Source: an uncultured Bacteroidota bacterium
GTDB taxonomy: Bacteria > Bacteroidota > Ignavibacteria > UBA10030 > UBA6906
NCBI GenBank assembly: GCA_963714855.1
Contig: CAVQPT010000014.1
Coordinates: forward strand, 112,569 to 176,568
Length of the DNA stretch: 64,000 nt
Direction of reading: 5' to 3'
The position numbers were made by a program, and so were the translations under genes. The notes below the pieces were generated by a model. That model saw only the letters and a program-made list of their open reading frames with translations, searched no databases and was not told where the DNA came from. Positions 830 through 54,668 of the stretch are shown here, piece by piece (position 1 is the first letter of the stretch; each line of letters begins with the position of its first letter).

Positions 830-892
830 CTTTCTTTGTACCTTTACTGTAGTACCACGGTCTCCCCTCAAGGTAGGAAAGATTCGCCGCAC

Positions 893-40300: not shown

Positions 40301-40650
40301 CTGTCCCACAGGTCCCCGCTGTCCGCAGCCAGAAGAGATGGTGTACTGGACACAAGAATGCGGTAGGCGGATTGAGCTGCCCCGCGCTCCGAGGACTCGA
40401 GGACCCAGCCCAGCCGTGGCTGCCGTGTGTCTATGCCTGACGGATCGGTTCTGAACTCGCAGATAAGGTGTGTCGGTTTTAGCATGGCCATTCCTGAATA
40501 TGGTCCTGACATGGTGATGATCACCGCAGCCAGGAGCGTGACCGAATTCAGCAGATGCGGAGTCGTCGTGCATGGCGGCCGGCGGGACGTTCGTTGAATA
40601 TACTCAGGCCAATCTCCATGCGCAACCGGGAAGCGAAGCCCCTGGCCCAT
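37353..40650 (-). pseudogene. GH78 alpha-L-rhamnosidase, frame interrupted near 39155-39165 (pseudogene or assembly indel); start uncertain
   Basis: The N-terminal ORF 39148..40650 (RQPRLGWVLES, AQSAYRILVSS, LWDSG) ends ...GESYDARTD*. The C-terminal ORF 37353..39176 in another frame continues REQIDRG... and carries DCPQRDERLGWTGDAQ plus the six-hairpin domain. Confidence 0.85.
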
Positions 40651-40783
40651 ATTTCCGATTCAAGCCCGCGTCAGGCCGGGCACGATCTGGCTTGACAATC
40701 GATCGCACTTCTTCGTTCTTTTGTACTATATTGCTGTTGATCTGAAGCCCGTGAAACCTCGTATGTACCTCACGAGAGACGCC

Positions 40784-43174
40784 ATGAAACGATTCCTCCT
40801 TTCCGGCCTGATCCTCGCCCTTCCCTGCATCGCAACAGCCCAGGAGAGCCGCATCGAACTCCTGAACCACTACAGTACACTTCTCGGAGCGCAGAAGAAC
40901 TTCAACATCTTCCTTCCGGCGGGGTATGATCAGGATACCGCTCGCTACCCCGTGGTGTACCTGTTTCGGGGTCACGAGCGGGAGTGGGCGAACCCCAGCG
41001 AGGACGCGAGCCGGAGGGGTAACATCAAGACCGTTGCCGACAGGGTGTCCATGGCCGGATTGATCGGAAATATGATCCTTGTCATGCCCGGGCTCTCCGC
41101 CCCGCCTACACCAGCTGAATTCGACTATGTCGCAACCGAGCTCATTCCCTACGTCGACTCTCATTTCCGGACAATACCGGTCCGTCAGAAACGAGGCATG
41201 GACGGTTTTTCCTACGGCGGGTACGACATGCTGGAAATGTTATGGCGATATCCTGAACTGTTCTTCACCGCAGGAGCATATGACGGTTCGTTCTGGGTCG
41301 TGAATCTGAACCTGTTCTTCGCTGGTGCCACCGATTCATACTGGAATCTCCTTCGCGTGATGAAATTCATGATTCACTCGACCCCCGCTGGTAACTATGC
41401 CTCGAATCTGCAGTTTCTCTCCATTCTTGGAAGTCACGGTATTACCAATGCTTTTGATACCCTGGATCTTGCTCCGAGCTCTGCCCACAACTGGTACTTC
41501 GCTGATTTGCACATGGAACGCGCGCTGCCATTGCACTGGCAACACTTTCTTGCCGGATCTCAGGCGCTTACGGTTCAACTCCATTCTCCCTTTGCTGCAA
41601 CGACCGTGTCCGGGACCGTAACGGTACAGTGGTCGGTGCAGCCCCATGCGTCAGGCGTCCGGACAGCGGTGGACGTCAGCCGCAACCGCGGAGCCAGCTG
41701 GCAGGAACTCTACTCGTCGACAAGTACTGACACGTCCTTCCTCTGGGATACAACACCGTTTCAGGATGGGACCGGATACATGGCGCGGGTTCGCGTGCTC
41801 GGCGACAGCGCATATGGATACGTGCAGACGGGAGGCAGGTTCACGGTGAACAACCCGGGAAACGCAATTCCTGAAGCGGGCATACTGTTTCCGGATTCTG
41901 CCGCGAACCTCACCAGCACCCAGACAATACAGTGGTGGGCCGAAGACGCGGACGGGGACTCGCTGAGGATTGCCATCGATGCAAGTACGGATGGAGGAAT
42001 CACCTGGAGTCAGATTGCCCAGCCGCCAAACAGCGGCGTGTACGTCTGGGAGACAGGGGCATCCCCAAACTCATCGACCTACCGTGTCAGCGTTCGGGCG
42101 AGCGACGCTGTAATCACAGGGATCGGCATATCGCCTCCCTTTGCCGTGAAGAATCCACGGCAGTCTCTGCAGAGAACACTGGTCAATCACATTTCAGGAA
42201 ACGCAGACGGGTCCGTCGTGGTGCATGTCGTCGATTCTTCACAGGTCTCGGGCCACACATACCGGATCCTCTTTCACGATTCCCTTGCCGGTGAAAAGCG
42301 TTACTCCGTTCTCGATGTGAACAGTGGAACAACGGCGGTGTCAGGCGCATCCGTCGGGACACCGGACCGGGAGGGACCCGCGTTTGACGGACTCCGGCTG
42401 GTCCTCACCGACATTGACGCTCCGCGGTTCTCGCCCGACTCCACGCGCTGGATCACGGGTGTGAGTAATCTCATCCCGGCCGTTACTCTCCCGAGTTTCG
42501 ACCCTGGCACGGGGCTGGTGACCGGATTCCCCTACGTTTCCGACTACCTGATCCAGATCGCTGATCATGTTGTCGATACGTCCAGTTCGCTGTTTAACTG
42601 GTCGCTCGCCCCCATGATGTTCACGGTCTGGAACATCACGGAGTCTCATCAGGTTGACGTACTCTTCACAGATCTGAACGGCGATGGCGCGATTGGCGCG
42701 TACGATGAGCTCATACTGCTCGAGCGCGACAGTCTTGGAGAGCTCTTCCCGACCTGGGCACTGTTTTTTGCTCCCCCATCGAGCCCCGTATTCCCCTCGC
42801 CGGGGGATGTCTTTCTGTTCAAGATCCTGAAGCCCTTCACCAGCGGCGACATCTACGAATTCCTGGCACTGCCGACGGGAATTGTCTCCGTTGGACCATC
42901 TACAAACCCTGGTGCATTCCGACTCGAGCAGAATTATCCGAATCCATTTAATCCGGTGACCACGATCCGGTATTCGATCGGGCAAAACGGCCCGGTCCGA
43001 CTCGTCGTCTACGATATCCTCGGTCGGCAGGTGGCAGTGCTGGTGAACGGGCAGAAAGCGCCCGGGAGGTACGAGGTGACATTTAACGCCGCCGGCCTCG
43101 CAAGCGGCATGTATCTCTACCGCCTGACCGCAGGTTCATTTGTCCAGACACGCACGATGCTGCTCATTCGATGA
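40784..43174 (+). CDS. exported esterase-family (alpha/beta hydrolase) multidomain protein with T9SS C-terminal sorting domain
   Basis: ATG 40784 gives MKRFLLSGLILALPCIATAQ. Esterase-D-like region: NIFLPAGYDQDTARYPVVYLFRGHEREW and GMDGFSYGGY. C-terminus: EQNYPNPFNPVTTIRY...MYLYRLTAGSFVQTRTMLLIR. Confidence 0.8.
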   Translation: MKRFLLSGLILALPCIATAQESRIELLNHYSTLLGAQKNFNIFLPAGYDQDTARYPVVYLFRGHEREWANPSEDASRRGNIKTVADRVSMAGLIGNMILVMPGLSAPPTPAEFDYVATELIPYVDSHFRTIPVRQKRGMDGFSYGGYDMLEMLWRYPELFFTAGAYDGSFWVVNLNLFFAGATDSYWNLLRVMKFMIHSTPAGNYASNLQFLSILGSHGITNAFDTLDLAPSSAHNWYFADLHMERALPLHWQHFLAGSQALTVQLHSPFAATTVSGTVTVQWSVQPHASGVRTAVDVSRNRGASWQELYSSTSTDTSFLWDTTPFQDGTGYMARVRVLGDSAYGYVQTGGRFTVNNPGNAIPEAGILFPDSAANLTSTQTIQWWAEDADGDSLRIAIDASTDGGITWSQIAQPPNSGVYVWETGASPNSSTYRVSVRASDAVITGIGISPPFAVKNPRQSLQRTLVNHISGNADGSVVVHVVDSSQVSGHTYRILFHDSLAGEKRYSVLDVNSGTTAVSGASVGTPDREGPAFDGLRLVLTDIDAPRFSPDSTRWITGVSNLIPAVTLPSFDPGTGLVTGFPYVSDYLIQIADHVVDTSSSLFNWSLAPMMFTVWNITESHQVDVLFTDLNGDGAIGAYDELILLERDSLGELFPTWALFFAPPSSPVFPSPGDVFLFKILKPFTSGDIYEFLALPTGIVSVGPSTNPGAFRLEQNYPNPFNPVTTIRYSIGQNGPVRLVVYDILGRQVAVLVNGQKAPGRYEVTFNAAGLASGMYLYRLTAGSFVQTRTMLLIR

Positions 43175-43378: not shown

Positions 43379-43407
43379 TTGACTCTCTCCGTCAAAACCG
43401 GTATTCT
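43379..43407 (+). promoter_or_regulatory. sigma-70-type promoter candidate TTGACT-N17-TATTCT
   Basis: TTGACT at 43379-43384, a 17-nt spacer, and TATTCT at 43402-43407. It lies 90 nt upstream of ATG 43497 in a 320-bp intergenic region. Confidence 0.4.
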
Positions 43408-43496
43408 ACTTATTGAGAATATCTGTCGCTCTTTGCAGTTCCCGGACACCAAACCCCGACAGGTGCCAGCCCTTGCAGCGTTCATTCCCCAAAAAC

Positions 43497-43880
43497 ATGG
43501 GTTCACTCGAAGGGGTTTTTACGTTCGTTTCGGAGTGCCTTTCGTCCTACTCCGCCGATCCTGGCACAGCGTACGTCGTTAACCTTGCGGTAGAAGAATT
43601 CTTCACCAACATGGTGAAGTACGCGCCTGAGGGGACCCACGACATCGACGTTGGGCTCGAAAAGCACGGCAATGCCGTCGTGGTCACCATGGTCGACCGG
43701 GACGTCGAACAATTCGATGTCACGCTTCCCCGGCCTGTCAACACTTCCCTCCCCCTCGAAGATCGCACACCGGGGGGACTGGGAGTCCACCTGGTACGTC
43801 AGATGGTGGACTCCCTTGACTACACCTATGCCAACAGGTGCAGCACGATTACGTTCACCAAGACCCTGGAGAATCAGTGA
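43497..43880 (+). CDS. anti-sigma regulatory factor, RsbW/SpoIIAB-like Ser kinase (HATPase_c type)
   Basis: 127 aa starting at ATG 43497. Motifs: AVEEFFTNMVKYA (N-box-like) and DRTPGGLGVHLVRQMVDSLDY (G-box). Confidence 0.75.
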   Translation: MGSLEGVFTFVSECLSSYSADPGTAYVVNLAVEEFFTNMVKYAPEGTHDIDVGLEKHGNAVVVTMVDRDVEQFDVTLPRPVNTSLPLEDRTPGGLGVHLVRQMVDSLDYTYANRCSTITFTKTLENQ

Positions 43881-44167
43881 TGTTTTCAGCTACCATGAAC
43901 GATGAAGGCGAAGTGCTTCTTGTGGGACGGCTTGATGCTTCTCAGGTGGACACCGCATCTGTCGTGCTCGACGCGGTGACGGCTACCTGCAGGGTGAACT
44001 TCGAGGGACTTGAGTACATCTCCAGCGCAGGGCTGGGCCTCCTCCTCAAGACCCAGAAACGCCTGAGCCTCTCCGGCCACAGCCTTATTCTCACGCGAAT
44101 GAACAAACTCGTTCGTGATGTGTTCCGGATTGCCCGATTTGACGTTGTTTTTCGTATAGAAGACTGA
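43880..44167 (+). CDS. STAS-domain anti-sigma-factor antagonist (RsbV/SpoIIAA-like)
   Basis: The start overlaps the upstream stop (TGATG). 95 aa. Contains LEYISSAGLGLLL (conserved phosphorylatable Ser context) and LILTRMNKLVRDVFRIARFD. Confidence 0.8.
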   Translation: MFSATMNDEGEVLLVGRLDASQVDTASVVLDAVTATCRVNFEGLEYISSAGLGLLLKTQKRLSLSGHSLILTRMNKLVRDVFRIARFDVVFRIED

Positions 44168-44203
44168 TGTCTTCACCAACTTTCCGATGCGAACACAGTA
44201 ATT

Positions 44204-44764
44204 ATGGTTGAACCCCAGGACGAAGATCTGGACCTGGTGTTGCGAAGCCGGAAGGGAGACCGCGAGGCCTTCGCGGCACTGGTCAAGAAATACCAGAGGC
44301 CGATGTTCAATGTGGCCCTGCGGATGACCGGGAACCGGGATGAGGCGGAGGAAGTTGTTCAGGAGGCATTCGTCAGGGCGTATGAAGCCCTGAGTTCATT
44401 CGACGTTCGATACAGATTCTTCAGCTGGCTCTACAGAATCCTGTCGAATCTCGCCCTGGATACGCTGAAACGAGGCAAACGCCGTGAGTCACTGGCACCC
44501 GACATACCGGACACCGACCCGTCACCGGAAACACTCCAGGAGGAGTCAGAGGTCGCCGAATCCGTTCAGCGAGCCATCGGGAAGTTGCCACCAGACTACA
44601 GGGCGGTCATTGTCCTCAGGCATTTCCAGGAATTATCATACGAAGAAATTGCGCGAATCCTGGATGTTCCGGAAAAGCGCGTCAAATCAAGGCTTTTTTC
44701 AGCACGGATGATGCTGCGCGAGTCGCTCGGGAGAGAAGGGTACGGATCGTATGAACAATCGTGA
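44204..44764 (+). CDS. ECF-type RNA polymerase sigma-70 factor
   Basis: Region 2: DREAFAALVKKYQRPMFNVALRMTGNRDEAEEVVQEAFVRAY. Region 4: LPPDYRAVIVLRHFQELSYEEIARILDVPEKRVKSRLFSAR. Confidence 0.9.
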   Translation: MVEPQDEDLDLVLRSRKGDREAFAALVKKYQRPMFNVALRMTGNRDEAEEVVQEAFVRAYEALSSFDVRYRFFSWLYRILSNLALDTLKRGKRRESLAPDIPDTDPSPETLQEESEVAESVQRAIGKLPPDYRAVIVLRHFQELSYEEIARILDVPEKRVKSRLFSARMMLRESLGREGYGSYEQS

Positions 44765-45524
44765 TATCATCGGGTTGATCAACAAGGAGCTGGATGGCAC
44801 ATTGCTCCCTGGCGAATCCGCAACATTGCAGAGAATTCTCGAAACGAACGAGGAAGCCCGGATCATACGCGCCGACCTGCGGCGTCTCGGCAAAACCCTG
44901 GCCTCGGTAGAACAGGCTGCTTCCCCACCCTCACTCCTGCCGGGCGTCATGCGGCGCATCGAAGAGCGGGAAGCGCATTCCACCCGGAAAGTCAGACGGC
45001 CATTTCATCTTTTTGAGACCCTGCGTGGACGGGCGCTTTCCACGGGGATAGGATTCGCCGGAGGTATCGCATTCGGGATTCTCGGGTTCTTTCTGGCCTC
45101 AAACCTCTCCACCCTTACGGACATTCACGACGCAGAGGTTTCCGGAACGCTTACCGGCAGCACCCAGACACCGGCGATAACCGGTGTCCAGAGCACTCCG
45201 TTCAACGCAGACGGTGTGACCGGGACGTTGCGCACGCAAACTTCAACAAATGTGATCACGGTCGGTCTTGAGATGCACAGTCCGGATACCTGCGCTGCGC
45301 GCCTCATATTCGACCCGACCCGTGGAAGCATCGAAGCTGTACGGCCGTCAGGCGAGTTTTCCGGGACTATTTCAATGGCCAACGGTATGCTGCTCGTGCA
45401 TGGGGGAAATTCGCTCGCACTTGAAATCACGCTCAGGCGCCATGCGCCGGGGCGTTTGACCCTTCAAACCGACATCACCCGAAGAGAAACTGGAATCGCA
45501 TCGCGAACGATCTCACTCGAGTGA
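44751..45524 (+). CDS. membrane-anchored anti-sigma factor (putative)
   Basis: Overlaps the sigma gene by 14 nt. The N-terminal helical anti-sigma-like region is LINKELDGTLLPGESATLQRILETNEEARIIRADLRRL. It has a single TM (IGFAGGIAFGILGFFLASNL) and a ~130-aa extracytoplasmic tail. Confidence 0.65.
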   Translation: MNNRDIIGLINKELDGTLLPGESATLQRILETNEEARIIRADLRRLGKTLASVEQAASPPSLLPGVMRRIEEREAHSTRKVRRPFHLFETLRGRALSTGIGFAGGIAFGILGFFLASNLSTLTDIHDAEVSGTLTGSTQTPAITGVQSTPFNADGVTGTLRTQTSTNVITVGLEMHSPDTCAARLIFDPTRGSIEAVRPSGEFSGTISMANGMLLVHGGNSLALEITLRRHAPGRLTLQTDITRRETGIASRTISLE

Positions 45525-45699
45525 TTGTTGAGGTGATATCGTGGAGTGTACCGGAGGAAGGCCTGTCCTTCCCCCGCAGTTTCTTTTTGTCACGAGCACC
45601 GATTCGCCAGTTCTTTGTATCCCCGCTCCACACGCACTAACGGGATCTGCGGGGTTCTGCGGCAGTCCATCAATTTCTCTCATCACATCCGGATGATGC

Positions 45700-48648
45700 A
45701 TGCCAAGGACACCTCTACTCCTGATCATCATTCTCGCGCTGGGACTGGCGGCTCCGGCTTCCCCCGGCGCTGATTTCTTCACCCTGCGCACAGGGAATAT
45801 GCGGCTTGTCTACTACTCGCCGACGCACTCCTACATCGTTCCACACCTCGCGCGCAGTTTTGAAAACTCCCTCGCATTCCACCGCAAGCTTTTTCATTTT
45901 GAGCCATCGCAGGATGTCCTGATTTTTCTGCAGGACTATGACGACTACGGATATGCCGGCGCCACCAGCATCCCCCGCAACTACATGATCCTCGGCATAT
46001 CTCCGTATGAATACACGTACGAGACGTCGCCGACAAACGAACGCTTCAACTGGGTGACCAGTCACGAGCTGACACACATTGTTGCCACCGACAAAGCCGC
46101 GCCGTCAGACCGATTTTTCCGCTCCATCCTGTTCGGCAAGGTCGTACCGGTTGCGGAAGAGCCTGTCTCAATTCTCTACAGCTACCTCACAACACCGCGG
46201 AAATATTCTCCCCGGTGGTACCACGAGGGGATCGCGGTCTTCATGGAGACGTGGATGGCGGGAGGCATCGGCCGCGCAATCAACGGCTATGACGAAATGG
46301 TCTTTCGCACGATGGTGCGCGAAGGGAGTTATTTCTACGATTTCGTCGGCCTCGAGTCGGAAGGAACAACTGTCGATTTTCAGATCGGTGCGAATTCCTA
46401 TCTGTACGGGACGCGGTTTGTGACCTATCTGGGTCGTGAATTCAGCCCTGCCCGGGTCATAGAGTGGTTCGACCGATCGGACACCAGCAACGCTTACTTC
46501 GCGTCAGCGTTTGCGAAGGTTTTCGGCCGGGATATCGATGACGTCTGGTCCGAGTGGATCGCCTTTGAGCATCGCTGGCAGGAGGCAAACCTCGATTCCA
46601 TCAATCAGTACCCGCGTACACAGATGCGGCCGATCGTCCCAGAGGCCCTGGGGGCTGTCTCGCGCGCCCATTTCGACGGCAAGACGCGCAACCTCTACCT
46701 GGGCGTCAATTTTCCGGGGGAGACCGCCCATATCATCTCCCTGAACATCGACAACGGCTCGATACGAAAAATCACGGACATCCCCACTCCTTCGTTGTAC
46801 AATGTGACGGCCACCGCGTTTGACGATTCGAGCGGGACTCTCTATTACACGACAAAAAACTCGAAGGGGTGGAGAGATCTCGTCGCTCTGGACGTTCGGA
46901 CCGGTCAGAACAGGATCCTCCTTGCCAACGCCCGCATCGGTGATCTCACCATGAACAAGGCTGACAAATCGCTCTGGGGAATTCAGCATCACGATGGCAT
47001 ATCACGACTCGTTCGCGTCCCCTACCCCTATCAGGGGTACCAGGAAATTGTCCCGTTCAAGTACGGCATCGATCTCTATGATCCGGACTTCTCGCCCGAT
47101 GGAGAGACGCTTGTTGCCTCCATGACCGAGATCAGCGGGCGACATTCTCTGATCGCCATCCCGCTCAACGAGCTTCTCAGCGCGGACATGAAACACGAAG
47201 TCCTGTACGAATTTGAGAACACCGCCCCGTTGAACTTCGTCTATTCTCCGGACGGAAAGTACCTGTTCGGCTCGACGTTCTACACGGGCGTATCCAACAT
47301 CGTCCGCTACGATATCGCCAGCAAGACCATGGAATGGCTGACGAATGTCGAAACAGGTCTCTTCCGCCCTGTGCCTGTGTCCGCCGACTCCGTTCTGGCA
47401 TTCCGGTATACAGCGAAGGGATTCCTGCCGGTGATGATCGCCAACACAACGCGCGACGACGTCCATGCGATATCCTACCTGGGGCAATCGGTGGTCGATC
47501 TGCATCCTGAAGTCAAGGAATGGAAACTTCCACCCCCGACCTCGCGGGTCATCAATCTCGATTCATTGACGGTCGCCACCGGCGAATACAACGGCCTGGA
47601 GAGTATTCAGCTGGGGTCGATTTACCCTGTGGCCCAGGGGTACAAGAACACCGTTGCCTGGGGAGCGCGGGCGAACCTCTTTGATCCGCTGCTGATGCAC
47701 AGCCTGGAGATGACCGCATCCTACTCTCCGAATCAGGGCCTCACACGGGATGAACGGTTCCATACCTCCGTGCGTTACAGGTACTGGCAGTGGAGTCTCA
47801 AGGCGGGCTATAATTCTGCTGATTTCTACGACCTCTTTGGACCGACAAAACGAAGTCGCAAAGGGTATGCCTTCACCCTGGGCTACAGTGATGGGATACT
47901 TGATGACCGGCCTGTCACGCTCGATTACTCACTCAGCGCCAGCGCCTACTGGGGACTGGAGCGATTGCCGTACTCTCAGAACATCGCCGTCACCTACGAC
48001 AGGTTTTTTGTTCTCAGCGGGAGCCTCGATTACCAACGGCGCCTTCGTTCGCTTGGCGCGGTGGACTATGAAAAAGGGGTCCAGATGTCTGTCGGAAACT
48101 ACACGTATGTCGTTCGATCGGTCTGGTTTCCCCAGTTTTACGCCACCGCAGACGTCGGGTTCGCGCTTCCCTGGAATCACTCCTCCCTCTGGATCAGAAC
48201 CGGCGGCGGCTACTCGCCCAAGGATGAAGATGAGCCCTTCTCGAATTTTTATTTCGGCGGGTTCGGGAACAACTACGTCGACTTTCGCGAGGTGAGCCGG
48301 TACCGTGATTTTGACAGCTTCCCGGGGACGAAACTAAATGCGATCGGCGGGACCACATTCGCGAAGGCCATGGCCGAATGGACACTCCCGCCGCTGCGGT
48401 TCAGGAGGTTCGGAGTTGCGGCCCTGTATTGCAACTGGACCCGCCTCTCCCTGTTTGGCGGATCCATCGCCGCAAATGTGCACAATCCGGCCCTGTTCAG
48501 GGTTGTCTCGAACGTCGGAGCGCAGGTGGATTTCAAGCTGGTAGTCTTCTCGAATCTTTCCGCGACGCTCTCCGCCGGGTATGCACTTGCCTTCGAGAAA
48601 GGCCGACTCCCCACAAAGGAGTTCATGATGTCGATCAAGATCCTTTGA
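45700..48648 (+). CDS. exported 982-aa protein: gluzincin-like HExxH domain + PD40/TolB-like beta-propeller region + C-terminal Omp85-like beta-barrel region
   Basis: Signal peptide MPRTPLLLIIILALGLAAPASPGA. SHELTHIV followed by WYHEGIAVFME. PD40-like repeats (DFSPDGETLV, VYSPDGKYLF). The C-terminal ~300 aa are Tyr/Gly/Phe-rich alternating strands ending in MSIKIL. Domain calls are pattern-based. Confidence 0.7.
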   Translation: MPRTPLLLIIILALGLAAPASPGADFFTLRTGNMRLVYYSPTHSYIVPHLARSFENSLAFHRKLFHFEPSQDVLIFLQDYDDYGYAGATSIPRNYMILGISPYEYTYETSPTNERFNWVTSHELTHIVATDKAAPSDRFFRSILFGKVVPVAEEPVSILYSYLTTPRKYSPRWYHEGIAVFMETWMAGGIGRAINGYDEMVFRTMVREGSYFYDFVGLESEGTTVDFQIGANSYLYGTRFVTYLGREFSPARVIEWFDRSDTSNAYFASAFAKVFGRDIDDVWSEWIAFEHRWQEANLDSINQYPRTQMRPIVPEALGAVSRAHFDGKTRNLYLGVNFPGETAHIISLNIDNGSIRKITDIPTPSLYNVTATAFDDSSGTLYYTTKNSKGWRDLVALDVRTGQNRILLANARIGDLTMNKADKSLWGIQHHDGISRLVRVPYPYQGYQEIVPFKYGIDLYDPDFSPDGETLVASMTEISGRHSLIAIPLNELLSADMKHEVLYEFENTAPLNFVYSPDGKYLFGSTFYTGVSNIVRYDIASKTMEWLTNVETGLFRPVPVSADSVLAFRYTAKGFLPVMIANTTRDDVHAISYLGQSVVDLHPEVKEWKLPPPTSRVINLDSLTVATGEYNGLESIQLGSIYPVAQGYKNTVAWGARANLFDPLLMHSLEMTASYSPNQGLTRDERFHTSVRYRYWQWSLKAGYNSADFYDLFGPTKRSRKGYAFTLGYSDGILDDRPVTLDYSLSASAYWGLERLPYSQNIAVTYDRFFVLSGSLDYQRRLRSLGAVDYEKGVQMSVGNYTYVVRSVWFPQFYATADVGFALPWNHSSLWIRTGGGYSPKDEDEPFSNFYFGGFGNNYVDFREVSRYRDFDSFPGTKLNAIGGTTFAKAMAEWTLPPLRFRRFGVAALYCNWTRLSLFGGSIAANVHNPALFRVVSNVGAQVDFKLVVFSNLSATLSAGYALAFEKGRLPTKEFMMSIKIL

Positions 48649-48650
48649 CG

Positions 48651-49661
48651 ATGGATCGCATCCTCCAGCTGGTTGTCGCCCTCCTCCCCGTGCTCGTGTT
48701 TCTCGGGAGTCTGGTGGTGCTGGACAGCTTCAAGCTTCTCCGGATACGCGAAGTATTTGCCACCATCGGCGTCGGTGTCATTATCGCGCTCGTAGGGTAC
48801 GGCGTGAACACAGGGATCTCTCAGGCGTTCAACCTTGAGGGAGCGACCCTTACCCGTTACGTCGGGCCGGCAGTTGAAGAGGTGCTCAAATCCCTATTTC
48901 TCCTCTTCCTGATCCGGACGCATAAGATTGGCTTTATGGTGGACGCGGCCGTACGCGGGTTCGCCATAGGGGCGGGATTCGCCATCGTCGAAAACCTTTA
49001 CTACATGCATATGCGCACTGAAGCCCACCTGGTCGTCTGGATCATCCGGGGATTCGGCACGGCCCTCATGCATGGGGGAATGACTGCAATCGTCGGGATC
49101 ACTGCAAAGGCGCTGATCGACCGCGCCGGCTCGTGGAAAATCCACCTGGTCCTCCCCGGGCTCCTTCTGGCAATGGTCCTGCACTCCCTGTTTAACCACT
49201 TCTTCGTGTCGCCGATGATTTCAACGCTGCTGACACTCGGCCTTCTCCCCCTCATCCTCGTCGCAGTCTTCAAACAGAGCGAATCAGTGACGCGCGACTG
49301 GCTGGGTGCGGGATTCGATACAGACAGGGAGATCCTGGAGATGATCACCTCCGGGGTCCTTGCCGAAAACAGAGTCGGCCGGTACCTGCATTCCCTGCAG
49401 GACCGTTTCCCTCCTGAAACAGTGGCCGACATGCTCTGCCTCCTCAGGCTCCACAGCGAACTCGCGGTCAGGGCAAAAGGGGTTCTTCTGATGCGAGATG
49501 CTGGATTTGAGCCTCCTCCAGACCAGGAGGCCCGGGACCAGATTCAGGAGTTGCGGTACCTGCAGAAAACCATCGGCAGGACGGGCCTTCTGGCGCTTCA
49601 TCCCATTTTGAACACTGGAAGCAGGGATTTGTGGCAGATTTCACTTCTTCGGAAAGAGTAA
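48651..49661 (+). CDS. prsW: PrsW-family intramembrane metalloprotease
   Basis: ATG 48651 lies 3 nt after the upstream stop. Polytopic. Motifs: AVEEVLKSLFLLFLIR, GFAIGAGFAIVENLYYM, RGFGTALMHGGMTAIVG. Confidence 0.8.
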   Translation: MDRILQLVVALLPVLVFLGSLVVLDSFKLLRIREVFATIGVGVIIALVGYGVNTGISQAFNLEGATLTRYVGPAVEEVLKSLFLLFLIRTHKIGFMVDAAVRGFAIGAGFAIVENLYYMHMRTEAHLVVWIIRGFGTALMHGGMTAIVGITAKALIDRAGSWKIHLVLPGLLLAMVLHSLFNHFFVSPMISTLLTLGLLPLILVAVFKQSESVTRDWLGAGFDTDREILEMITSGVLAENRVGRYLHSLQDRFPPETVADMLCLLRLHSELAVRAKGVLLMRDAGFEPPPDQEARDQIQELRYLQKTIGRTGLLALHPILNTGSRDLWQISLLRKE

Positions 49662-49752
49662 ATAGGAGTGTAAGATCGACCAACTTTTCAACCCCAGGAC
49701 AGTAGTTCCATTAGACCAGCTCCCTCACCACAACAAATCTGCAGGAGGTACC

Positions 49753-50433
49753 ATGGATAACCCAACCACCCCAACGACCGGGAAACGCAAATTCCGGATA
49801 TTGATCGGCAGTGCTCTGGCAGTCATCGTTGTTCTGGCCGCCGTTGCGATTCTGCTGCCCTATCCTCCTGAAGAGGACACAGCCGGAACCATCGGGGCAG
49901 CCAAGAAGTACCGGGCGGAGCAGATCAGCGAGGCAGACGTCGAGCTGGCCGGACAGTCCACCGCCACTGCAACGGCAGCAAACGCCTCCGCCAACGTGGA
50001 TGCCAGCGGCAGAGTCGCCATCGAGGAGAGAGCTTCCCTGGTGAGCCGCGCGACACTCGAGCAGCGGGCTACAATGTTCGCGAGCCTCCCAGCGGAACAA
50101 ATGAAGGCTCTTCTGGACCGGACACCGGCAGAAGCCATGAAGGCCGCGTTTAGCCGGATGAACACCGCCGAGAAGAATGCCATCCTGGCAAAGGTGCCTG
50201 CTGAAGAGCGCGCCACGTTTTTCGATAAGATGAGCCAGCTCGACAGCCGCCAGTTGGCGCTTGCAAAGATCCCCGTGGAATCCCGGTACGCTATCTTTAA
50301 TGCAGTCCCCGTTGAAGCGAAGACTGCAGTGCTCAACGCACTCCCGGTAGCCGAGCGGAACAGCGTCCTGAACGCCATGCCGGTGGAAGCCATGCGGATG
50401 GAAGCCCGGATGGAAGCGAAGACCGCACGATAA
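49753..50433 (+). CDS. membrane-anchored protein with about ten tandem 12-aa helical P-x-E repeats (MgtE_N/FliG-ARM-like)
   Basis: ATG 49753 follows AGGAGG. N-terminal TM (ILIGSALAVIVVLAAVAILL). Repeats: PAEQMKALLDRT / PAEAMKAAFSRM / NTAEKNAILAKV / PAEERATFFDKM / PVESRYAIFNAV / PVEAKTAVLNAL / PVAERNSVLNAM / PVEAMRMEARME. A strong terminator follows. Confidence 0.6.
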   Translation: MDNPTTPTTGKRKFRILIGSALAVIVVLAAVAILLPYPPEEDTAGTIGAAKKYRAEQISEADVELAGQSTATATAANASANVDASGRVAIEERASLVSRATLEQRATMFASLPAEQMKALLDRTPAEAMKAAFSRMNTAEKNAILAKVPAEERATFFDKMSQLDSRQLALAKIPVESRYAIFNAVPVEAKTAVLNALPVAERNSVLNAMPVEAMRMEARMEAKTAR

Positions 50434-50470: not shown

Positions 50471-50508
50471 GGCGGGCAACCTGATACAGAGGTTGCCCGC
50501 CTTTTGTT
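50471..50508 (+). terminator. Rho-independent terminator
   Basis: GGCGGGCAACC (50471-50481), a 9-nt loop, GGTTGCCCGCC (50491-50501), then TTTTGTT. It lies 37 nt after the stop at 50433. Confidence 0.7.
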
Positions 50509-50635
50509 GCACTCGGTTTTCAACCCGCACGTTGCTATTCTGCGCTTCTCCGCGTATCTTCTCCAAGATTTTGAACTCCGACATTGCTTCGTTACACATT
50601 GTCTCTGCACACGCGGAGATTGAAAGAACCGAAAG

Positions 50636-52565: not shown

Positions 52566-54668
52566 TCAATGAACGAGAAGGGCTTTGCTCGTCAGATTTG
52601 CGCTTCCGGCCTGCAACCGGAAGAGGTACACTCCGCTGGAGAGGCCGCGGCCGTCAAACTGGACCTCATGGTATCCCGCCCCCTCCACATCATCAAACAG
52701 ATCGCGCACAATTCTCCCGAGGAGATCGTACACGGTCAGACGAACACGTGACCGCTTCGGCAAGAGAAAACAGATGTTCGTTGTCGGATTGAACGGATTG
52801 GGGTAGTTTTGGAGGAGAGCCGGCTGGACAGGTAGCGGCGCGCCGATCTGAACACTTGTCGGCTGCACGAAAGAATAGCGGATGATGGTCCCGCTATTCC
52901 CTGCGATCCAGGCCTGTGATCGGTCAGGAAACCAGACAGCGCTACAGTCGTTCGTCGTCACCCTCGGCGACGGGTTCCAGGTCGTGCCGCCATCGGTGGT
53001 CTGGACCACCATCCCCATGTCCCCCACGGCCATCCCCACAAGTGTGTCCGCGAGCTGCACGTGACGGTAAGCCGTCCCCTGCGAGAGACCGACCGAAGCT
53101 ATCGCCCAGTTTCTGCCGCCGTCTGCCGTTCGGAGAATCGTGCTCCGGAAACCGACGGCGAGTCCGAGCGATGGCGTGGCAAAGTGGACGTCGCTCAGGT
53201 TGTCCTCTGTTTGGCTGATTTGCGGTGCCCAGCTGATCCCGCCATCGGTGGTACGGAGTATTATCCCGAAATCACCAACTGCGCATGCCTCTCCTTCACC
53301 GGCTCCGTGGACACCGTAAAGGCGCACCGTCACGGGGGTGTCCTGCCGGTGCCAGGACTCGCCTCCGTCTGTAGTGCGGATCACCCGTCCCCCGTCCCCG
53401 GCGGCGACTCCCATGAGCCGATTCCAAAAGTGGACGGCAAAGAGTGGTCCGACCCCAACCTGCGACACCCACTGCTTCCCGCCATCGGTCGTGCGCAAGA
53501 GCACATCCCACCCCACGACTACGCCATGGAGCGAATCTGTGAACGTGATCGCATTGAGTCCTGCACTGGTGACAAGCGAGTGGTCCTCCCACGTTCGGCC
53601 GCCGTCGTCGGTACGGAGGATCGTCCCGGCGTTCCCGACCGCGATCCCGTGCATCTCGTTCGTGAAGCAGATATCCTGTAGACGTTCTGTCCGCCCCTTG
53701 GTTCGATTGACCCACTGTTGTCCGCCGTTCGTCGTGCGCAGGACCGTACCCGCATCTCCGACCGCCAGTGCCGTTGCTGCGTCACTGAAATGAATTCCAT
53801 AGAGCCAGGATTCCGTGATCGCCGGCTGGAGTATCCATGTTCGTCCGCCGTCTGTCGTTTTCGTGACGGTTCCAACGTCGCCGACGGCGATCCCCCGTAG
53901 GGTGTCGAACAACATCACGGCGTTGAGCCAGTTCGTCGTGCCGCTTTCGCGTGGCTCCCAGCTCCGGCCGTAGTCTGTACTCCGGAGAATCGTTCCACTC
54001 GCCCCGGCAATTATTCCCAAGCCGCCATTCAGAAGGTGGGCGGACAGAAGTCTGCCGGGCACGCCGCTCAACACATTCGTCCACGTCAAACCAGCATCTG
54101 TGGTCCGCTGTATAGTTCCTCCATGCCCCACGGCAACACCGGTGGTCGGGCCGGCAAACGAAACCCCCTGAAGGTTTCTGCCAGTTCCGCTCGTTTGCTG
54201 CGTCCAAGTGTAACCACCGTCGAGACTCCGTATGATCGTGCCATTCAATCCAACTGCACATGCCAGGTGGGGTTCAGGGAAGTCTACGGCGTAGAGCCGC
54301 TGCTCAGTGCCGCCGGGGACACTCGTCCAGGCGACACCGCCGTCATCAGTGCGTAGAACCTCTCCGGATTCTCCGACGGCGATCCCCTGAGTCGGATTCG
54401 TGAACCGTATGCCGAACAGGGAGAGCGTAGTGTTACCGGGGTGGGAAGACCATGTTTCGCCTGCGTCACGGGTGTTCAACATCGTTCCCGCGTAACCAAC
54501 CGCCCACCCGGAGTTCTGGTCAATGAAGTCGAAACCCCGAAGGACATTACCTTGTGGGAGAGGATTGCGCCATTCCCACTGCGGCTGGCTGTAGAGGTGG
54601 GTGACGAGGGGAGCCACAAGGAAGGCGAGAAACCAGCAAACAGCATGATGTATCATGGCATGCCTCAT
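52566..54668 (-). CDS. BNR/Asp-box repeat (Ycf48/sialidase-like double beta-propeller) protein with T9SS C-terminal sorting domain
   Basis: About 12 Asp-box repeats (TDDGGVAWTS, SLDGGYTWTQ, TTDAGLTWTN, STDYGRSWEP, TTDGGRTWIL and others). C-terminus: LQNYPNPFNPTTNICF...VYLFRLQAGSANLTSKALLVH. Its stop is 1 nt from the convergent ldh stop. Confidence 0.85.
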   Translation of the reverse strand: MRHAMIHHAVCWFLAFLVAPLVTHLYSQPQWEWRNPLPQGNVLRGFDFIDQNSGWAVGYAGTMLNTRDAGETWSSHPGNTTLSLFGIRFTNPTQGIAVGESGEVLRTDDGGVAWTSVPGGTEQRLYAVDFPEPHLACAVGLNGTIIRSLDGGYTWTQQTSGTGRNLQGVSFAGPTTGVAVGHGGTIQRTTDAGLTWTNVLSGVPGRLLSAHLLNGGLGIIAGASGTILRSTDYGRSWEPRESGTTNWLNAVMLFDTLRGIAVGDVGTVTKTTDGGRTWILQPAITESWLYGIHFSDAATALAVGDAGTVLRTTNGGQQWVNRTKGRTERLQDICFTNEMHGIAVGNAGTILRTDDGGRTWEDHSLVTSAGLNAITFTDSLHGVVVGWDVLLRTTDGGKQWVSQVGVGPLFAVHFWNRLMGVAAGDGGRVIRTTDGGESWHRQDTPVTVRLYGVHGAGEGEACAVGDFGIILRTTDGGISWAPQISQTEDNLSDVHFATPSLGLAVGFRSTILRTADGGRNWAIASVGLSQGTAYRHVQLADTLVGMAVGDMGMVVQTTDGGTTWNPSPRVTTNDCSAVWFPDRSQAWIAGNSGTIIRYSFVQPTSVQIGAPLPVQPALLQNYPNPFNPTTNICFLLPKRSRVRLTVYDLLGRIVRDLFDDVEGAGYHEVQFDGRGLSSGVYLFRLQAGSANLTSKALLVH

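What the first reader, a model, noticed from the sequence alone, without database searches (positions are those of the whole stretch)
43379..49661. ECF sigma factor flanked by both a partner-switching pair and an envelope protease set (HExxH/PD40/barrel protein + PrsW)
Seen: a promoter-like TTGACT-N17-TATTCT is followed by six co-directional genes.
- RsbW/SpoIIAB-like kinase.
- STAS antagonist (TGATG overlap with the kinase gene).
- ECF sigma.
- Membrane anti-sigma (14-nt overlap with the sigma gene).
- A 982-aa exported metalloprotease-like protein.
- A PrsW-type intramembrane protease, starting 3 nt after the previous stop.

Established: RsbW/RsbV-type partner switching classically controls group-3 sigmas (SigB, SigF). 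PrsW is the site-1 protease that cleaves the anti-sigma RsiW to release ECF SigW in Bacillus subtilis.

Inference: a single ECF sigma appears wired to a cytoplasmic phosphorylation-based input and to an extracytoplasmic proteolytic cascade. This combination is unusual and, as far as I know, uncharacterised.
Basis: partly seen in the sequence, partly recalled or inferred. Interest (0 to 1): 0.65.

Follow-up and report, generated by a model that had tools for sequence, protein, structure and literature searches.

The report
Conserved SigW-like envelope signalling gene cluster
This is a seven-to-eight-gene cluster found in more than ten bacterial phyla, with no description in the papers I could search; it joins a SigW/RsiW-like sigma/anti-sigma pair to a PrsW protease, a previously undescribed outer-membrane protease-barrel protein, a repeat protein and a phosphorylation switch, and it probably reports envelope trouble to the transcription machinery.

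Summary
The six genes exist as described. I made small corrections: the kinase most likely starts at TTG 43473, and PrsW starts at 48651.

The cluster is not a chance neighbourhood. Sampling from the 982-aa protein (80 species) and separately from the kinase (7 contexts) recovers the same module. Its parts are:
- (GAF-PP2C)-RsbW-like kinase-STAS;
- ECF sigma and anti-sigma;
- a seventh gene, M, a membrane-anchored periplasmic repeat protein (window 49753-50433);
- the 982-aa protein plus PrsW.

The sigma's best match is B. subtilis SigW. A profile of the anti-sigma family has one clear match among solved structures, the N-domain of RsiW. The 982-aa protein has a signal peptide, an HExxH peptidase-like domain, a TolB-type propeller and an Omp85-type barrel.

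It is not one operon. An ECF-type motif, CCAACTTTT-N12-TGTATTT, abuts the sigma start codon and also precedes M. M carries its own terminator. The 982-aa/PrsW pair has no such motif.

My reading is a SigW/RsiW/PrsW-type proteolytic switch adapted to double-membrane bacteria, with a dedicated partner-switching pair alongside. Two steps remain inferred: that PrsW cleaves this anti-sigma, and that the kinase binds this sigma.

I rate it a new variant of a known kind, of high interest.

The parts
43379..43407 (+). Sigma-70-like promoter candidate for the kinase-STAS pair (TTGACT-N17-TATTCT)
   Evidence: sequence; 9/12 match, not significant alone. The aligned L081 site TTGACA-N17-TATCGT lies at the same distance from the kinase start. 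Matches of at least 9/12 occur upstream of K in 8/33 loci that lack an upstream PP2C gene, against 7% of control windows.
43473..43880 (+). K: RsbW/SpoIIAB-like serine kinase / anti-sigma-type protein (135 aa from TTG 43473; an alternative ATG is at 43497)
   Evidence: Pfam HATPase_c_2, E 1.6e-17. NCBIfam RsbW models give only weak hits. The N-box E..N and the G2 GGLG are conserved; G1 reads DxDV-ExFD. Homologues are found only inside this module.
43880..44167 (+). S: single-domain STAS anti-sigma-factor antagonist (95 aa); Ser49 lies in the motif YISSAGLG
   Evidence: Pfam STAS_2/STAS and TIGR00377. Ser49 aligns with the phospho-serine S58 of SpoIIAA, and the motif is at least 90% conserved. 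Solved-structure hits are SpoIIAA and TM1442.
44176..44203 (+). P_E: ECF-type promoter motif CCAACTTTC-N12-AGTAATT, directly abutting the sigma ATG
   Evidence: PWM score 22 bits. It is one of only two hits in the 64-kb window. The same position is occupied in 48/54 sigma-bearing loci, and in about 40 of those 48 the motif touches the ATG. Confirmed in loci not used to build the PWM.
44204..44764 (+). E: ECF sigma factor, SigW-like (186 aa)
   Evidence: Pfam Sigma70_r2/r4_2/ECF. The best NCBIfam models are the SigW models, at 150 and 135 bits, below their equivalog cut-offs of 209 and 243. The best solved-structure match is SigW 5wuq_A, E 1.5e-31.
44751..45524 (+). A: single-pass anti-sigma factor (257 aa). 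RsiW-like N-terminal anti-sigma domain without the zinc motif; TM at about residues 98-118; periplasmic domain of about 140 aa
   Evidence: 14-nt overlap with E. The family profile hits RsiW 5wuq_C over residues 5-77 at E 1.8e-11; the next hit is 0.006. The alignment shows no HxxxCxxC.
45552..45590 (+). Hairpin followed by a T-rich run after the anti-sigma gene (terminator-like)
   Evidence: Folding energy is -12.9 kcal/mol. L081 has a hairpin with different stem sequence that still pairs at the same place, at -20.6 kcal/mol. The T-run starts 5-6 nt after the stem, so it is not canonical, and the scan tool did not call it.
45700..48648 (+). B: 982-aa exported protein. Signal peptide 45700-45771; HExxH peptidase-like domain 45778-46602 (HELTH at 46063-46077; candidate third ligand E176 in WYHEG, codon starting at 46225); six-bladed TolB-type propeller 46627-47442; 16-strand Omp85-type barrel 47572-48645
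   Evidence: AF2 model: pLDDT 83.7, pTM 0.83. Foldseek matches TolB for the propeller and BamA/TamA/CdiB for the barrel model (pLDDT 85). H122, E123, H126 and E176 are invariant in 42 homologues. Family members give sub-threshold Pfam hits: Peptidase_MA_2 18/42, PD40 18/42, Omp85_2 16/42.
48651..49661 (+). P: PrsW-family intramembrane protease (336 aa) with about seven predicted TM segments and a conserved C-terminal domain of about 130 aa that is not annotated
   Evidence: Pfam PF13367 at 73 bits. The NCBIfam PrsW equivalog model scores only 27.8 against a cut-off of 225. The motifs EExxK, FA..EN, RG.GTA..HG and H...N are at least 95% conserved in 73 homologues. P lies directly downstream of B in 68/73 loci. 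The two genes are translationally coupled: 2-nt gap here, 1- or 4-nt overlaps in L081, L082, L086 and L087.
49680..49707 (+). P_M: second copy of the ECF-type motif (CCAACTTTT-N12-AGTAGTT), 45 nt upstream of M; a GGAGG ribosome-binding site lies between them
   Evidence: PWM score 27 bits. The equivalent site is upstream of M in 34/58 loci, and it follows M when the gene order is permuted.
49753..50433 (+). M: seventh module gene. N-in membrane anchor, conserved juxtamembrane segment (GTIG.A.KYRAEQI..DV.L), then alpha-helical tandem repeats that vary greatly between species (226 aa here, up to 807 aa elsewhere)
   Evidence: Pfam MgtE_N-like repeat hit, E 3.7e-11. Homologues lie between A and B in most loci. 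M is fused to a zinc-type anti-sigma domain in L050 and L080.
50471..50510 (+). Intrinsic terminator after M (GGCGGGCAACCT-GATACAG-AGGTTGCCCGCC-TTTT)
   Evidence: Terminator-like sites follow M in 32/63 loci, against 5% of random windows and 0-13% after the other module genes.

Best explanation
The finding is the core of a conserved envelope-signalling module with four or five transcription units.
1. K-S, with a GAF-PP2C phosphatase gene next to K in about a quarter of the B-anchored loci with a detectable K and in 5 of the 6 distinct kinase-anchored contexts, is a dedicated partner-switching set expressed from a housekeeping-type promoter.
2. E-A is a SigW/RsiW-type ECF sigma and membrane anti-sigma pair. 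It is transcribed from its own ECF-type promoter as an apparently leaderless mRNA, so it is autoregulated.
3. M is a monocistronic gene with the same promoter motif and its own terminator. It is the one conserved non-self target of E.
4. B-P is a translationally coupled pair. B is an outer-membrane Omp85-type barrel whose periplasmic part is a gluzincin-like peptidase plus a TolB-type propeller. P is an inner-membrane PrsW-family protease. The pair has no ECF motif and is therefore probably expressed independently of E.

Most likely mechanism (inferred):
- B monitors the outer membrane or periplasm.
- P makes the site-1 cut in the periplasmic part of A, as PrsW does with RsiW. B may trim the stump.
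- An unlinked site-2 protease then frees E.
- E amplifies E-A and induces M.
- M feeds back on the proteases. It shares the juxtamembrane G-T-[ILM] motif with A, and in some Acidobacteriota it is fused to an anti-sigma domain.
- K-S-(PP2C) add a cytoplasmic, GAF-sensed checkpoint. The simplest version is that K acts as a second, RsbW-type anti-sigma on E, relieved by dephosphorylated S.

Shown here: gene content, homologies, folds, synteny, promoter and terminator motifs. Inferred: every protein-protein and protease-substrate step.
For: Synteny
- More than 574 species encode B.
- 36 loci show the complete K-S-E-A-M-B-P order.
- P directly follows B in 68/73 loci. K, S and E are all upstream in 39/52 loci.
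- Kinase-anchored sampling gives the same module in every context that has enough flanking DNA. This includes a permuted order (K S M B P E A) and a Woeseia-like gammaproteobacterium.

Homology
- E's best match is SigW.
- A's N-domain matches RsiW at E 1.8e-11.
- P is a PrsW-family protein with its conserved motifs intact.
- PrsW is the site-1 protease for RsiW (PMC10202637).

Cis elements
- A PWM for CCAACTTTT-N12-TGTATTT gives 89 hits in 1.23 Mb, both strands, and none in shuffles. Of these, 48 lie at E, 34 at M and 7 elsewhere.
- The 64-kb window has exactly two hits.
- Loci not used to build the PWM show hits only at E and M, even where the order is permuted.
- The motif abuts the E start codon in about 40 of 48 loci.
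- Terminators follow M in 51% of loci against 5% of random windows.

B architecture.

Partner switch
- The phospho-serine and the kinase N-box and G2 box are conserved.
- A GAF+SpoIIE gene sits directly upstream of K in 12 of the B-anchored loci and next to K (co-directional, divergent, or a few genes away) in 5 of the 6 distinct kinase-anchored contexts.
- Loci L058 and L061 lack A but keep K-S next to E.

A-M link
- Anti-sigma-domain/M fusions in L050 and L080.
- Shared juxtamembrane motif.
Against: - There is no transcript, interaction or cleavage data. No RNA runs contain this sequence.
- A lacks RsiW's zinc motif, and its periplasmic domain has no detected similarity to RsiW.
- P and E fall below the NCBIfam equivalog cut-offs for PrsW and SigW, so orthology is not established.
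- K has a degenerate G1 box and no close relative of known structure.
- In Bordetella, none of the ECF-linked partner-switch proteins acts as a negative regulator; they control secretion by an unknown mechanism.
- K-S also sit next to M-B-P where E-A is missing from the locus (L051, L064). Their partner could therefore be something other than E.
- The GTA core lies unusually close (-6 to -4) to the presumed transcription start, if the E mRNA is truly leaderless.
- The A/M shared motif is only three residues long (hhalign probability 61%).
Confidence: 0.5

Rival explanations
1. Non-canonical partner switch. K-S-(PP2C) belong to the module but do not sequester E. The output would be S or K acting on another module component, for example the conserved cytoplasmic C-terminal domain of P or the cytoplasmic face of A. 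This would gate proteolysis rather than bind sigma.
For: - Many Gram-negative RsbW/RsbV-like pairs have no identified sigma target (PMC3999984; PMC8256260).
- In the Bordetella btr locus an ECF sigma sits beside BtrU/W/V, yet these proteins control secretion.
- K-S lie outside the ECF-driven unit.
- K-S stay next to M-B-P in L051 and L064, where E-A is absent from the locus.
- P carries a conserved C-terminal domain of about 130 aa with no known function.
Against: - In L058 and L061 an ECF sigma without any anti-sigma-domain partner sits beside K-S. This is what one expects if K is the anti-sigma.
- K is adjacent to E in the large majority of loci.
- Zixibacteria loci that lack K-S nearby still have the P C-terminal domain.
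Confidence: 0.3
2. B-P (with M) is an envelope housekeeping or quality-control protease machine, not the input to E. It could be a counterpart of BamA and BepA that removes stalled outer-membrane proteins. A would be controlled by other proteases or signals. The genes would cluster because E controls M, a component or regulator of that machine.
For: - B is extremely conserved: 46-70% identity across phyla, 63% mean column identity. This is more typical of core machinery than of a dedicated sensor.
- B combines an Omp85 barrel with a peptidase.
- B-P lack the ECF motif and have their own unit.
- B occurs without a recognisable E-A upstream in about 10 of 52 loci.
Against: - All three SigW-system parts (SigW-like sigma, RsiW-like anti-sigma, PrsW-like protease) co-localise across phyla and stay together through rearrangements.
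- In L069 and L078, P has moved next to K-S-E-A, away from B.
- A and M share a juxtamembrane motif, and fusions of the two exist.
Confidence: 0.3
3. Fortuitous adjacency: unrelated operons that happen to be neighbours in this genome.
For: The genes fall into several transcription units. The sigma-70-like promoter alone is not statistically meaningful.
Against: The module is conserved in more than ten phylum-level lineages, whether sampling starts from B or from K, and it survives permutations. The same promoter motif sits in front of both E and M in 31 loci.
Confidence: 0.02

Closest known systems
Bacillus subtilis sigma-W / RsiW / PrsW / RasP regulated intramembrane proteolysis
   Same: - The ECF sigma's best match is SigW.
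- The anti-sigma N-domain is homologous to RsiW.
- A PrsW-family protease with intact conserved motifs is present.
- The promoter has AAC-N17-GTA spacing, like the sigma-W consensus TGAAAC-N16-CGTA (consensus recalled from my own knowledge, not checked here).
- The sigma and anti-sigma genes are coupled and autoregulated.
   Different: - The hosts here are double-membrane bacteria.
- The prsW homologue is linked to the sigma locus and coupled to an outer-membrane protein.
- The anti-sigma lacks the zinc HxxxCxxC motif and has an unrelated periplasmic domain.
- There are extra components: M, B, K-S and a PP2C phosphatase.
- E and P are below the equivalog cut-offs.
- The E mRNA appears leaderless.
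Escherichia coli sigma-E / RseA / DegS / RseP envelope stress response (with BamA and BepA in its regulon)
   Same: - An ECF sigma is held by a single-pass anti-sigma in a double-membrane cell.
- The input is proteolytic and plausibly tied to outer-membrane protein status.
- An Omp85 barrel and a periplasmic metalloprotease belong to the same functional circle.
   Different: - The site-1 protease candidate is a PrsW-type membrane protease, not a DegS-type PDZ serine protease.
- The Omp85 barrel and the peptidase are fused in one protein and are not under the ECF promoter.
- No RseB-like gene is present.
Bordetella btr locus (ECF BtrS, anti-sigma BtrA, partner switchers BtrU/BtrW/BtrV)
   Same: An ECF sigma is genetically linked to a PP2C phosphatase, an RsbW-like kinase and a STAS protein (PMC7498569).
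   Different: - There the switch controls type III secretion, none of its proteins acts as a negative regulator, and the anti-sigma is secreted.
- Here there is a membrane RsiW-like anti-sigma and proteases.
- Gene order and protein families are only distantly related.
Bacillus sigma-B (RsbU/RsbV/RsbW) and sigma-F (SpoIIE/SpoIIAA/SpoIIAB) partner switching
   Same: A HATPase_c_2 kinase, a STAS protein with a conserved phospho-serine, and a SpoIIE-family PP2C phosphatase (with a GAF sensor domain) are all present.
   Different: - The neighbouring sigma is group 4 (ECF), not group 3.
- The kinase and STAS genes lie upstream of, not within, the sigma-dependent unit.
- The kinase G1 box is degenerate.
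Omp85 superfamily (BamA, TamA, TpsB/CdiB)
   Same: - A 16-strand C-terminal barrel whose top 50 Foldseek matches are all Omp85 proteins.
- A long, conserved loop at the position of Omp85 loop L6.
   Different: The POTRA domains are replaced by an HExxH peptidase-like domain and a TolB-type propeller. No Pfam or NCBIfam family covers the protein.

Membership tests
SigW/RsiW/PrsW RIP system | ECF sigma orthologous to SigW | tested here: inconclusive
   The SigW models are the top NCBIfam hits, at 149.9 and 135.4 bits, but below their cut-offs of 209 and 243. SigW is the top solved-structure hit, E 1.5e-31, only marginally ahead of other ECF sigmas. ECF Hub group HMMs were not available.
SigW/RsiW/PrsW RIP system | Anti-sigma with an RsiW-type N-terminal anti-sigma domain, co-transcribed with sigma | tested here: met
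   The A-family profile hits RsiW 5wuq_C at E 1.8e-11; the next hit is 0.006. The genes overlap by 14 nt.
SigW/RsiW/PrsW RIP system | Zinc-binding HxxxCxxC motif in the anti-sigma domain | tested here: not met
   The alignment to RsiW shows no His or Cys at these positions in the window protein or the family consensus.
SigW/RsiW/PrsW RIP system | PrsW-family protease with catalytic motifs | tested here: met
   PF13367 scores 73.4 bits against a cut-off of 23.5. EExxK, FA..EN, H.G and H...N are at least 95% conserved. The NCBIfam PrsW equivalog model is not met (27.8 against 225).
SigW/RsiW/PrsW RIP system | PrsW cleaves the anti-sigma at site 1, followed by a site-2 protease | not testable with these tools
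   No biochemical or transcript data exist. I did not look for a site-2 protease in the window.
RsbW/RsbV-type partner switching | HATPase_c_2 kinase with ATP-binding boxes | tested here: inconclusive
   The Pfam hit is above the cut-off (64 against 27.4). The N-box and G2 box are conserved, but G1 reads DxDV-ExFD instead of DxGxG.
RsbW/RsbV-type partner switching | STAS antagonist with a phosphorylatable serine | tested here: met
   Ser49 in YISSAGLG aligns with S58 of SpoIIAA and is at least 90% conserved.
RsbW/RsbV-type partner switching | Cognate PP2C (SpoIIE-family) phosphatase | tested here: inconclusive
   None is found in the 64-kb window. A GAF+SpoIIE gene lies directly upstream of K in 12 of the B-anchored loci, and next to K or a few genes away in the kinase-anchored contexts L082-L086 and L088 but not L087.
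RsbW/RsbV-type partner switching | The kinase binds and inhibits a sigma factor (classically group 3) | not testable with these tools
   The adjacent sigma is an ECF sigma (group 4). No tool for predicting protein complexes was available.
Omp85 superfamily | 16-strand C-terminal beta-barrel | tested here: met
   AF2 barrel model at pLDDT 85. The top 50 Foldseek hits are all BamA, TamA or CdiB, with E from 1.5e-6 to 1.6e-4 and TM about 0.45-0.55. Pfam Omp85_2 is sub-threshold, hit in 16/42 members.
Omp85 superfamily | N-terminal POTRA domain(s) | tested here: not met
   The N-terminal 600 residues fold as a helical peptidase-like domain plus a six-bladed propeller.
MA-clan (gluzincin) metallopeptidase | HExxH plus a downstream Glu as third zinc ligand | tested here: inconclusive
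   HELTH (residues 122-126) and E176 in WYHEG are invariant in 42 homologues. Peptidase_MA_2 is hit only sub-threshold, in 18/42 members, best E 1.8e-5, and not by the window protein itself. The model's active-site geometry was not inspected.
Cell-surface signalling (FecA/FecR/FecI type) | TonB-dependent transducer plus FecR-type anti-sigma | tested here: not met
   There are no TonB-receptor or FecR Pfam hits. B is Omp85-type and A is RsiW-type.

The most novel reading that the evidence does not exclude
The module is a trans-envelope sensor. An Omp85-family barrel with a built-in metallopeptidase and TolB-like propeller would report outer-membrane or OMP-assembly status, through a PrsW-type protease, to an RsiW-like anti-sigma. 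The same ECF sigma would also be held by an RsbW-type anti-sigma under control of a GAF-PP2C/STAS switch. This would be the first ECF sigma under two mechanistically different anti-sigmas. It would also be the counterpart of the sigma-E/RseA/DegS pathway in the Bacteroidota-Ignavibacteriota-Fibrobacterota group of phyla and in Acidobacteriota. M would act as an inducible decoy substrate that closes a negative feedback loop.
Probability: 0.25. Interest if true: 0.85.

Novelty: new variant of a known kind. Interest (0 to 1): 0.72.

Why it matters
- Envelope-stress signalling is worked out for E. coli (sigma-E) and Bacillus (sigma-W, sigma-V). As far as I know it is largely unknown for the large Bacteroidota-Ignavibacteriota-related group of phyla and for Acidobacteriota, which dominate soils, sediments and bioreactors.
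- This module is present in hundreds of species of those phyla. It is built from recognisable SigW-system parts plus three unstudied families: B, M and the dedicated K-S pair. It comes with a sharply defined promoter motif, so a regulon and a reporter are immediately available.
- B is a new Omp85 architecture (peptidase, propeller, barrel). That is relevant to outer-membrane biogenesis and quality control.
- If the kinase really binds the ECF sigma, this would be a clear case of RsbW-type partner switching acting on a group-4 sigma and combined with regulated proteolysis.

Tried and rejected
1. A single six-gene operon behind TTGACT-N17-TATTCT. Rejected: there is an internal ECF promoter at the sigma gene, and hairpins with T-runs after A and after M.
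2. An M-B-P operon driven by P_M. This was my own intermediate reading. I dropped it when terminators turned up after M in 51% of loci, and because the window and L081 have no ECF motif before B.
3. ECF-group classification. No ECF Hub HMMs were available. The reclassification paper's main text mentions no STAS, PrsW or HATPase context, and its supplements are not held.
4. Transcript evidence. Only weak DNA-metagenome matches were found (at most 10% of words), and no RNA runs.
5. Sequence searches of solved structures. B gave only the TolB propeller. K gave nothing. M gave nothing.
6. A PP2C phosphatase gene in the window. None was found. Only the GAF domain of an unrelated hybrid kinase at 29496-31712 matched.
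7. A cultured host. I tried to identify one through the 5-Mb contig that carries K homologue P0233. This failed.
8. A-M homology beyond the juxtamembrane motif. hhalign aligns only 14 columns at 61% probability. I keep this as a hint, not a result.
Full report
**1. Observation**

ORF listing and profile scans confirm six co-directional genes.
- **K.** A HATPase_c_2 protein (E 1.6e-17), whose weak NCBIfam hits are to RsbW models.
- **S.** A 95-aa STAS protein that overlaps K in TGATG.
- **E.** A 186-aa ECF sigma.
- **A.** A 257-aa membrane protein overlapping the sigma gene by 14 nt.
- **B.** A 982-aa protein with no Pfam hit.
- **P.** A PrsW-family protein. PF13367 scores 73 bits against a cut-off of 23.5. 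Its ATG lies two bases after the preceding stop.

One correction concerns the start of K. Relatives begin MERSFRRDM, and the window reads LQRSFPKNM from TTG 43473. The gene call in the closest relative is 135 aa. So K most likely starts at 43473.

TTGACT-N17-TATTCT is at 43379-43407. It is a 9/12 match that the scan does not separate from chance: 6 sites were found against 3.1 +/- 2.0 in shuffles. The closest relative, L081, has TTGACA-N17-TATCGT at the same 94-nt distance from the K start, in flanks that are otherwise diverged. Among loci without an upstream phosphatase gene, 8 of 33 have a match of at least 9/12 upstream of K, against 7% of control windows. It is a reasonable candidate promoter for K-S, and nothing more.

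**2. It is a conserved module with a seventh gene**

*Sampling from B.*
- A scan of one genome per species with B found more than 574 relatives. The best 80 are 46-70% identical over the full length.
- The uploaders' labels on these genomes cover Ignavibacteriota, Bacteroidota, Latescibacterota, KSB1, Eisenbacteria, Krumholzibacteriota, Calditrichota, Rhodothermales, Zixibacteria, Marinimicrobia, Fibrobacteraceae, Chlorobiaceae and Acidobacteriota, including Aminicenantes.
- tblastn and iterative HMM searches on all ORFs of these loci give one consensus order, all on one strand: K S E A M B P.
In the window, and in L081 (B 83% identical), M sits after P, at 49753-50433.

*Counts.*
- P directly follows B in 68 of 73 loci with enough downstream DNA. 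In two more loci, P has moved in front of K.
- E is upstream of B in 42 of 52 loci with at least 5 kb of upstream DNA. K, S and E are all there in 39 of 52.
- 36 loci show the complete seven-gene order.

*Sampling from K.* K homologues number 240 hits, all about 133-135 aa with HATPase_c_2. I read seven of their contexts. Every context with enough flanking DNA contains S, E, A, M, B and P. Two are notable:
- One has a permuted order, K S M B P E A, with a divergent GAF-PP2C gene (L082).
- One lineage carries typical gammaproteobacterial neighbours (hslVU, ubiE/J/B, xerC) and is labelled Woeseia (L084, L085, L088).

So the K-S pair is dedicated to this module.

*The phosphatase.* In 12 of the B-anchored loci, a gene of about 430 aa with GAF and SpoIIE (PP2C) domains lies directly upstream of K. 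The kinase-anchored contexts L082-L086 and L088 also carry one next to K or a few genes away; L087 does not. The window has none within its 64 kb.

**3. What the parts are**

*E and A.*
- E's best NCBIfam models are the two SigW models, at 150 and 135 bits. Both are below the equivalog cut-offs.
- E's best solved-structure match is B. subtilis SigW, 5wuq_A, E 1.5e-31.
- A profile of 35 A homologues hits the N-terminal domain of RsiW at E 1.8e-11 (same crystal complex, chain C, residues 5-77). The next hit is at 0.006.
- A lacks RsiW's HxxxCxxC zinc motif.

*P.* It keeps EExxK, FA..EN, RG.GTA..HG and H...N at 95% or more across 73 homologues. It also has a conserved C-terminal domain of about 130 aa with no annotation.

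*K and S.*
- K keeps the N-box (E..N) and the G2 box (GGLG). Its G1 box reads DxDV-ExFD.
- S keeps YISSAGLG. Ser49 aligns with the phospho-serine S58 of SpoIIAA.

*B.*
- AlphaFold2 with a 42-sequence alignment gives pLDDT 83.7 and pTM 0.83.
- The model shows a signal peptide, a helical domain (residues 27-301), a six-bladed propeller (310-581) and a barrel (about 625-982).
- The helical domain carries invariant HELTH (122-126) and an invariant WYHEG (E176). WYHEG resembles the WxxEG third-ligand motif of M1-type gluzincins; that comparison is from my own knowledge.
- The propeller's best structural matches are TolB.
- The barrel, modelled separately (pLDDT 85), matches only Omp85 proteins in its top 50 Foldseek hits: BamA, TamA and CdiB, with E from 1.5e-6 to 1.6e-4.
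- Family members give sub-threshold Pfam hits to Peptidase_MA_2 (18/42), PD40 (18/42) and Omp85_2 (16/42).
- No sequence relative of the peptidase or barrel part has a solved structure.
- The family has 756 clusters at E 1e-30 or better in the 50%-identity representative library. Where sources name it, the name is almost always 'hypothetical protein'.
- By analogy with the POTRA domains of other Omp85 proteins, the peptidase and propeller should face the periplasm.

*M.*
- It has a short, positively charged N-terminus and one TM helix.
- A conserved segment of about 25 residues follows (GTIG.A.KYRAEQI..DV.L).
- After that come alpha-helical tandem repeats that differ completely between lineages in sequence and number. 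Length ranges from 226 to 807 aa.
- These repeats explain the MgtE_N and LED-repeat Pfam hits.
- In two Acidobacteriota loci (L050, L080), the same TM, juxtamembrane segment and repeats are fused behind a zinc-type anti-sigma domain. This places the repeats in the periplasm and ties M functionally to anti-sigma factors.

**4. Transcription units**

*A shared motif at E and M.*
- Looking at the A-M intergenic regions revealed a bipartite motif. A strict regular expression found 67 copies in 1.2 Mb on both strands. Of these, 37 lay at the start of the sigma gene, 23 upstream of M and only three at sites unrelated to the module.
- A PWM for CCAACTTTT-N12-TGTATTT gives 89 hits at 14 bits or more, and none in shuffled sequence. 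Of these, 48 lie at E (48 of 54 sigma-bearing loci), 34 lie at M (34 of 58) and 31 loci have both. Seven hits lie elsewhere.
- The whole 64-kb window has exactly two hits, even at a threshold of 9 bits: 44176-44203 before E, and 49680-49707 before M.
- Loci that were not used to build the PWM (L082-L088) show hits only at those two positions. This includes the permuted L082 and the gammaproteobacterial loci.
- The AAC-to-GTA spacing of 17 nt is that of ECF promoters. It equals the spacing in the sigma-W consensus TGAAAC-N16-CGTA (consensus from my own knowledge).

*The E mRNA looks leaderless.* In about 40 of 48 loci the motif is immediately followed by the sigma ATG. The residues right after that ATG are conserved as protein. 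So the E-A mRNA is probably leaderless, or nearly so. M, in contrast, has a leader of about 45 nt with a GGAGG site.

*M has its own terminator.*
- M is followed by a GC-rich hairpin and T-run in 32 of 63 loci. The figure is 5% for random windows and 0-13% after the other module genes.
- In the window this terminator is GGCGGGCAACCT-GATACAG-AGGTTGCCCGCC-TTTT, at 50471-50505.

*The gap between A and B.* In the window and L081, this gap has a hairpin with different stem sequence that still pairs, followed by a T-rich run (-12.9 and -20.6 kcal/mol). It has no ECF motif.

*B and P.* They are translationally coupled: a 2-nt gap here, and 1- or 4-nt overlaps in L081, L082, L086 and L087.

The units are therefore:
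- [PP2C] [K-S];
- [P_E: E-A];
- [P_M: M, terminator];
- [B-P, promoter unknown].

The sigma's supported targets are itself plus A, and M. B-P appear independent of E. As far as I recall, prsW in B. subtilis is likewise not part of the sigma-W regulon.

**5. Mechanism**

Three homologous parts of the B. subtilis sigma-W system are held together across phyla and through rearrangements. PrsW is the established site-1 protease of RsiW (PMC10202637).

The most economical reading runs as follows:
- P cuts the periplasmic part of A.
- An unlinked site-2 protease completes the release of E.
- E amplifies E-A and induces M.

*Role of B.* B is coupled to P and sits in the outer membrane, so it is the best candidate for the sensor. 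It could also be the trimming protease between site 1 and site 2. Alternatively, it is a quality-control enzyme whose load is what gets sensed.

*Role of M.* Several observations bear on it:
- It is the one conserved target of E.
- It shares a G-T-[ILM] motif with A, 10-17 residues after the TM helix: 52 of 58 M proteins and 31 of 45 A proteins. The hhalign match is weak, at 61% probability.
- It is fused to an anti-sigma domain in some lineages.

A role as an inducible competitor or adaptor for the proteases is attractive, but it is speculative.

*Role of K-S-(PP2C).* They are a dedicated cytoplasmic input. That K binds E is the simplest idea. It fits loci L058 and L061, where an ECF sigma without any anti-sigma-domain partner sits beside K-S. 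There are three counter-arguments:
- K-S lie outside the ECF-driven unit.
- K-S also neighbour M-B-P where E-A is absent from the locus (L051, L064).
- In the Bordetella btr locus, none of the partner-switch proteins acts as a negative regulator; they control secretion by an unknown mechanism (PMC7498569, PMC8256260).

I give the overall model 0.5. I give the specific K-E claim less than that.

**6. Novelty**

Full-text searches for combinations of ECF, PrsW, STAS, RsbW, Omp85, PD40 and related terms found no description of this module or of the B family. The main text of the ECF reclassification paper mentions no such context. Its supplements are not held, so a listing there cannot be excluded.

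The system is built from known kinds of parts, so I rate it a new variant of a known kind. It contains a new Omp85 architecture and a new repeat-protein family.

**7. Limits**

- Everything about who binds or cleaves whom is inferred.
- Taxon labels are those of the genome-bin uploaders.
- The PWM was built from the same loci it was first scored on. The positional concentration and the out-of-sample loci are the independent evidence.
- No RNA data exist for this sequence.

Noticed in passing
window 44751-45524 and 49753-50433; loci L050:640-2274, L080:4925-6517: The anti-sigma A and the repeat protein M share a juxtamembrane periplasmic G-T-[ILM] motif 10-17 residues after the TM helix. In two Acidobacteriota loci the M-type TM, motif and repeats are fused to a zinc-type anti-sigma domain.
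   Followed up: partly
window 49753-50433 and M homologues such as L012:5427-7850 and L064:6404-7864: The C-terminal part of M consists of alpha-helical tandem repeats of about 9-12 aa. Their sequence and copy number differ completely between lineages (226 to 807 aa), while the N-terminal 60 residues are conserved.
   Followed up: partly
L082/L083 (K S M B P E A); L069, L078 (P K S E A M B); window and L081 (K S E A B P M): The module's gene order has been permuted several times without losing any member. The ECF-type motif moves together with E and with M.
   Followed up: yes
L084, L085, L088: The complete module, with the GAF-PP2C gene, occurs in a Woeseia-labelled gammaproteobacterial context (hslVU, ubiE/J/B, xerC neighbours). 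This lies outside the Bacteroidota-related and Acidobacteriota lineages and suggests horizontal transfer.
   Followed up: partly
window 37353-40650, minus strand: A GH78 alpha-L-rhamnosidase is split into two overlapping ORFs: 39148-40650 (N-terminal domains) and 37353-39176 (catalytic and C-terminal domains). This is a frameshift, a pseudogene or an assembly error near 39148-39176.
   Followed up: no
window 671-5959, plus strand: A 1762-aa ORF has an amino-acid permease domain only at residues 87-485. The remaining roughly 1270 residues are not annotated.
   Followed up: no
window 29496-31712, plus strand: A single polypeptide carries GAF, HisKA, HATPase, receiver and AraC-HTH domains. Its GAF domain is the only window match to the module's GAF-PP2C phosphatase.
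   Followed up: no
window 40721-43174 and 52566-54668 (minus strand): Two proteins carry type IX secretion C-terminal sorting domains. One is an esterase with Ig and BNR elements; the other is a BNR/Ycf48-like propeller. They flank the module, among GH3 and GH78 glycosidase genes. This marks the organism as a polysaccharide degrader that uses type IX secretion, as Bacteroidota and related phyla do.
   Followed up: no
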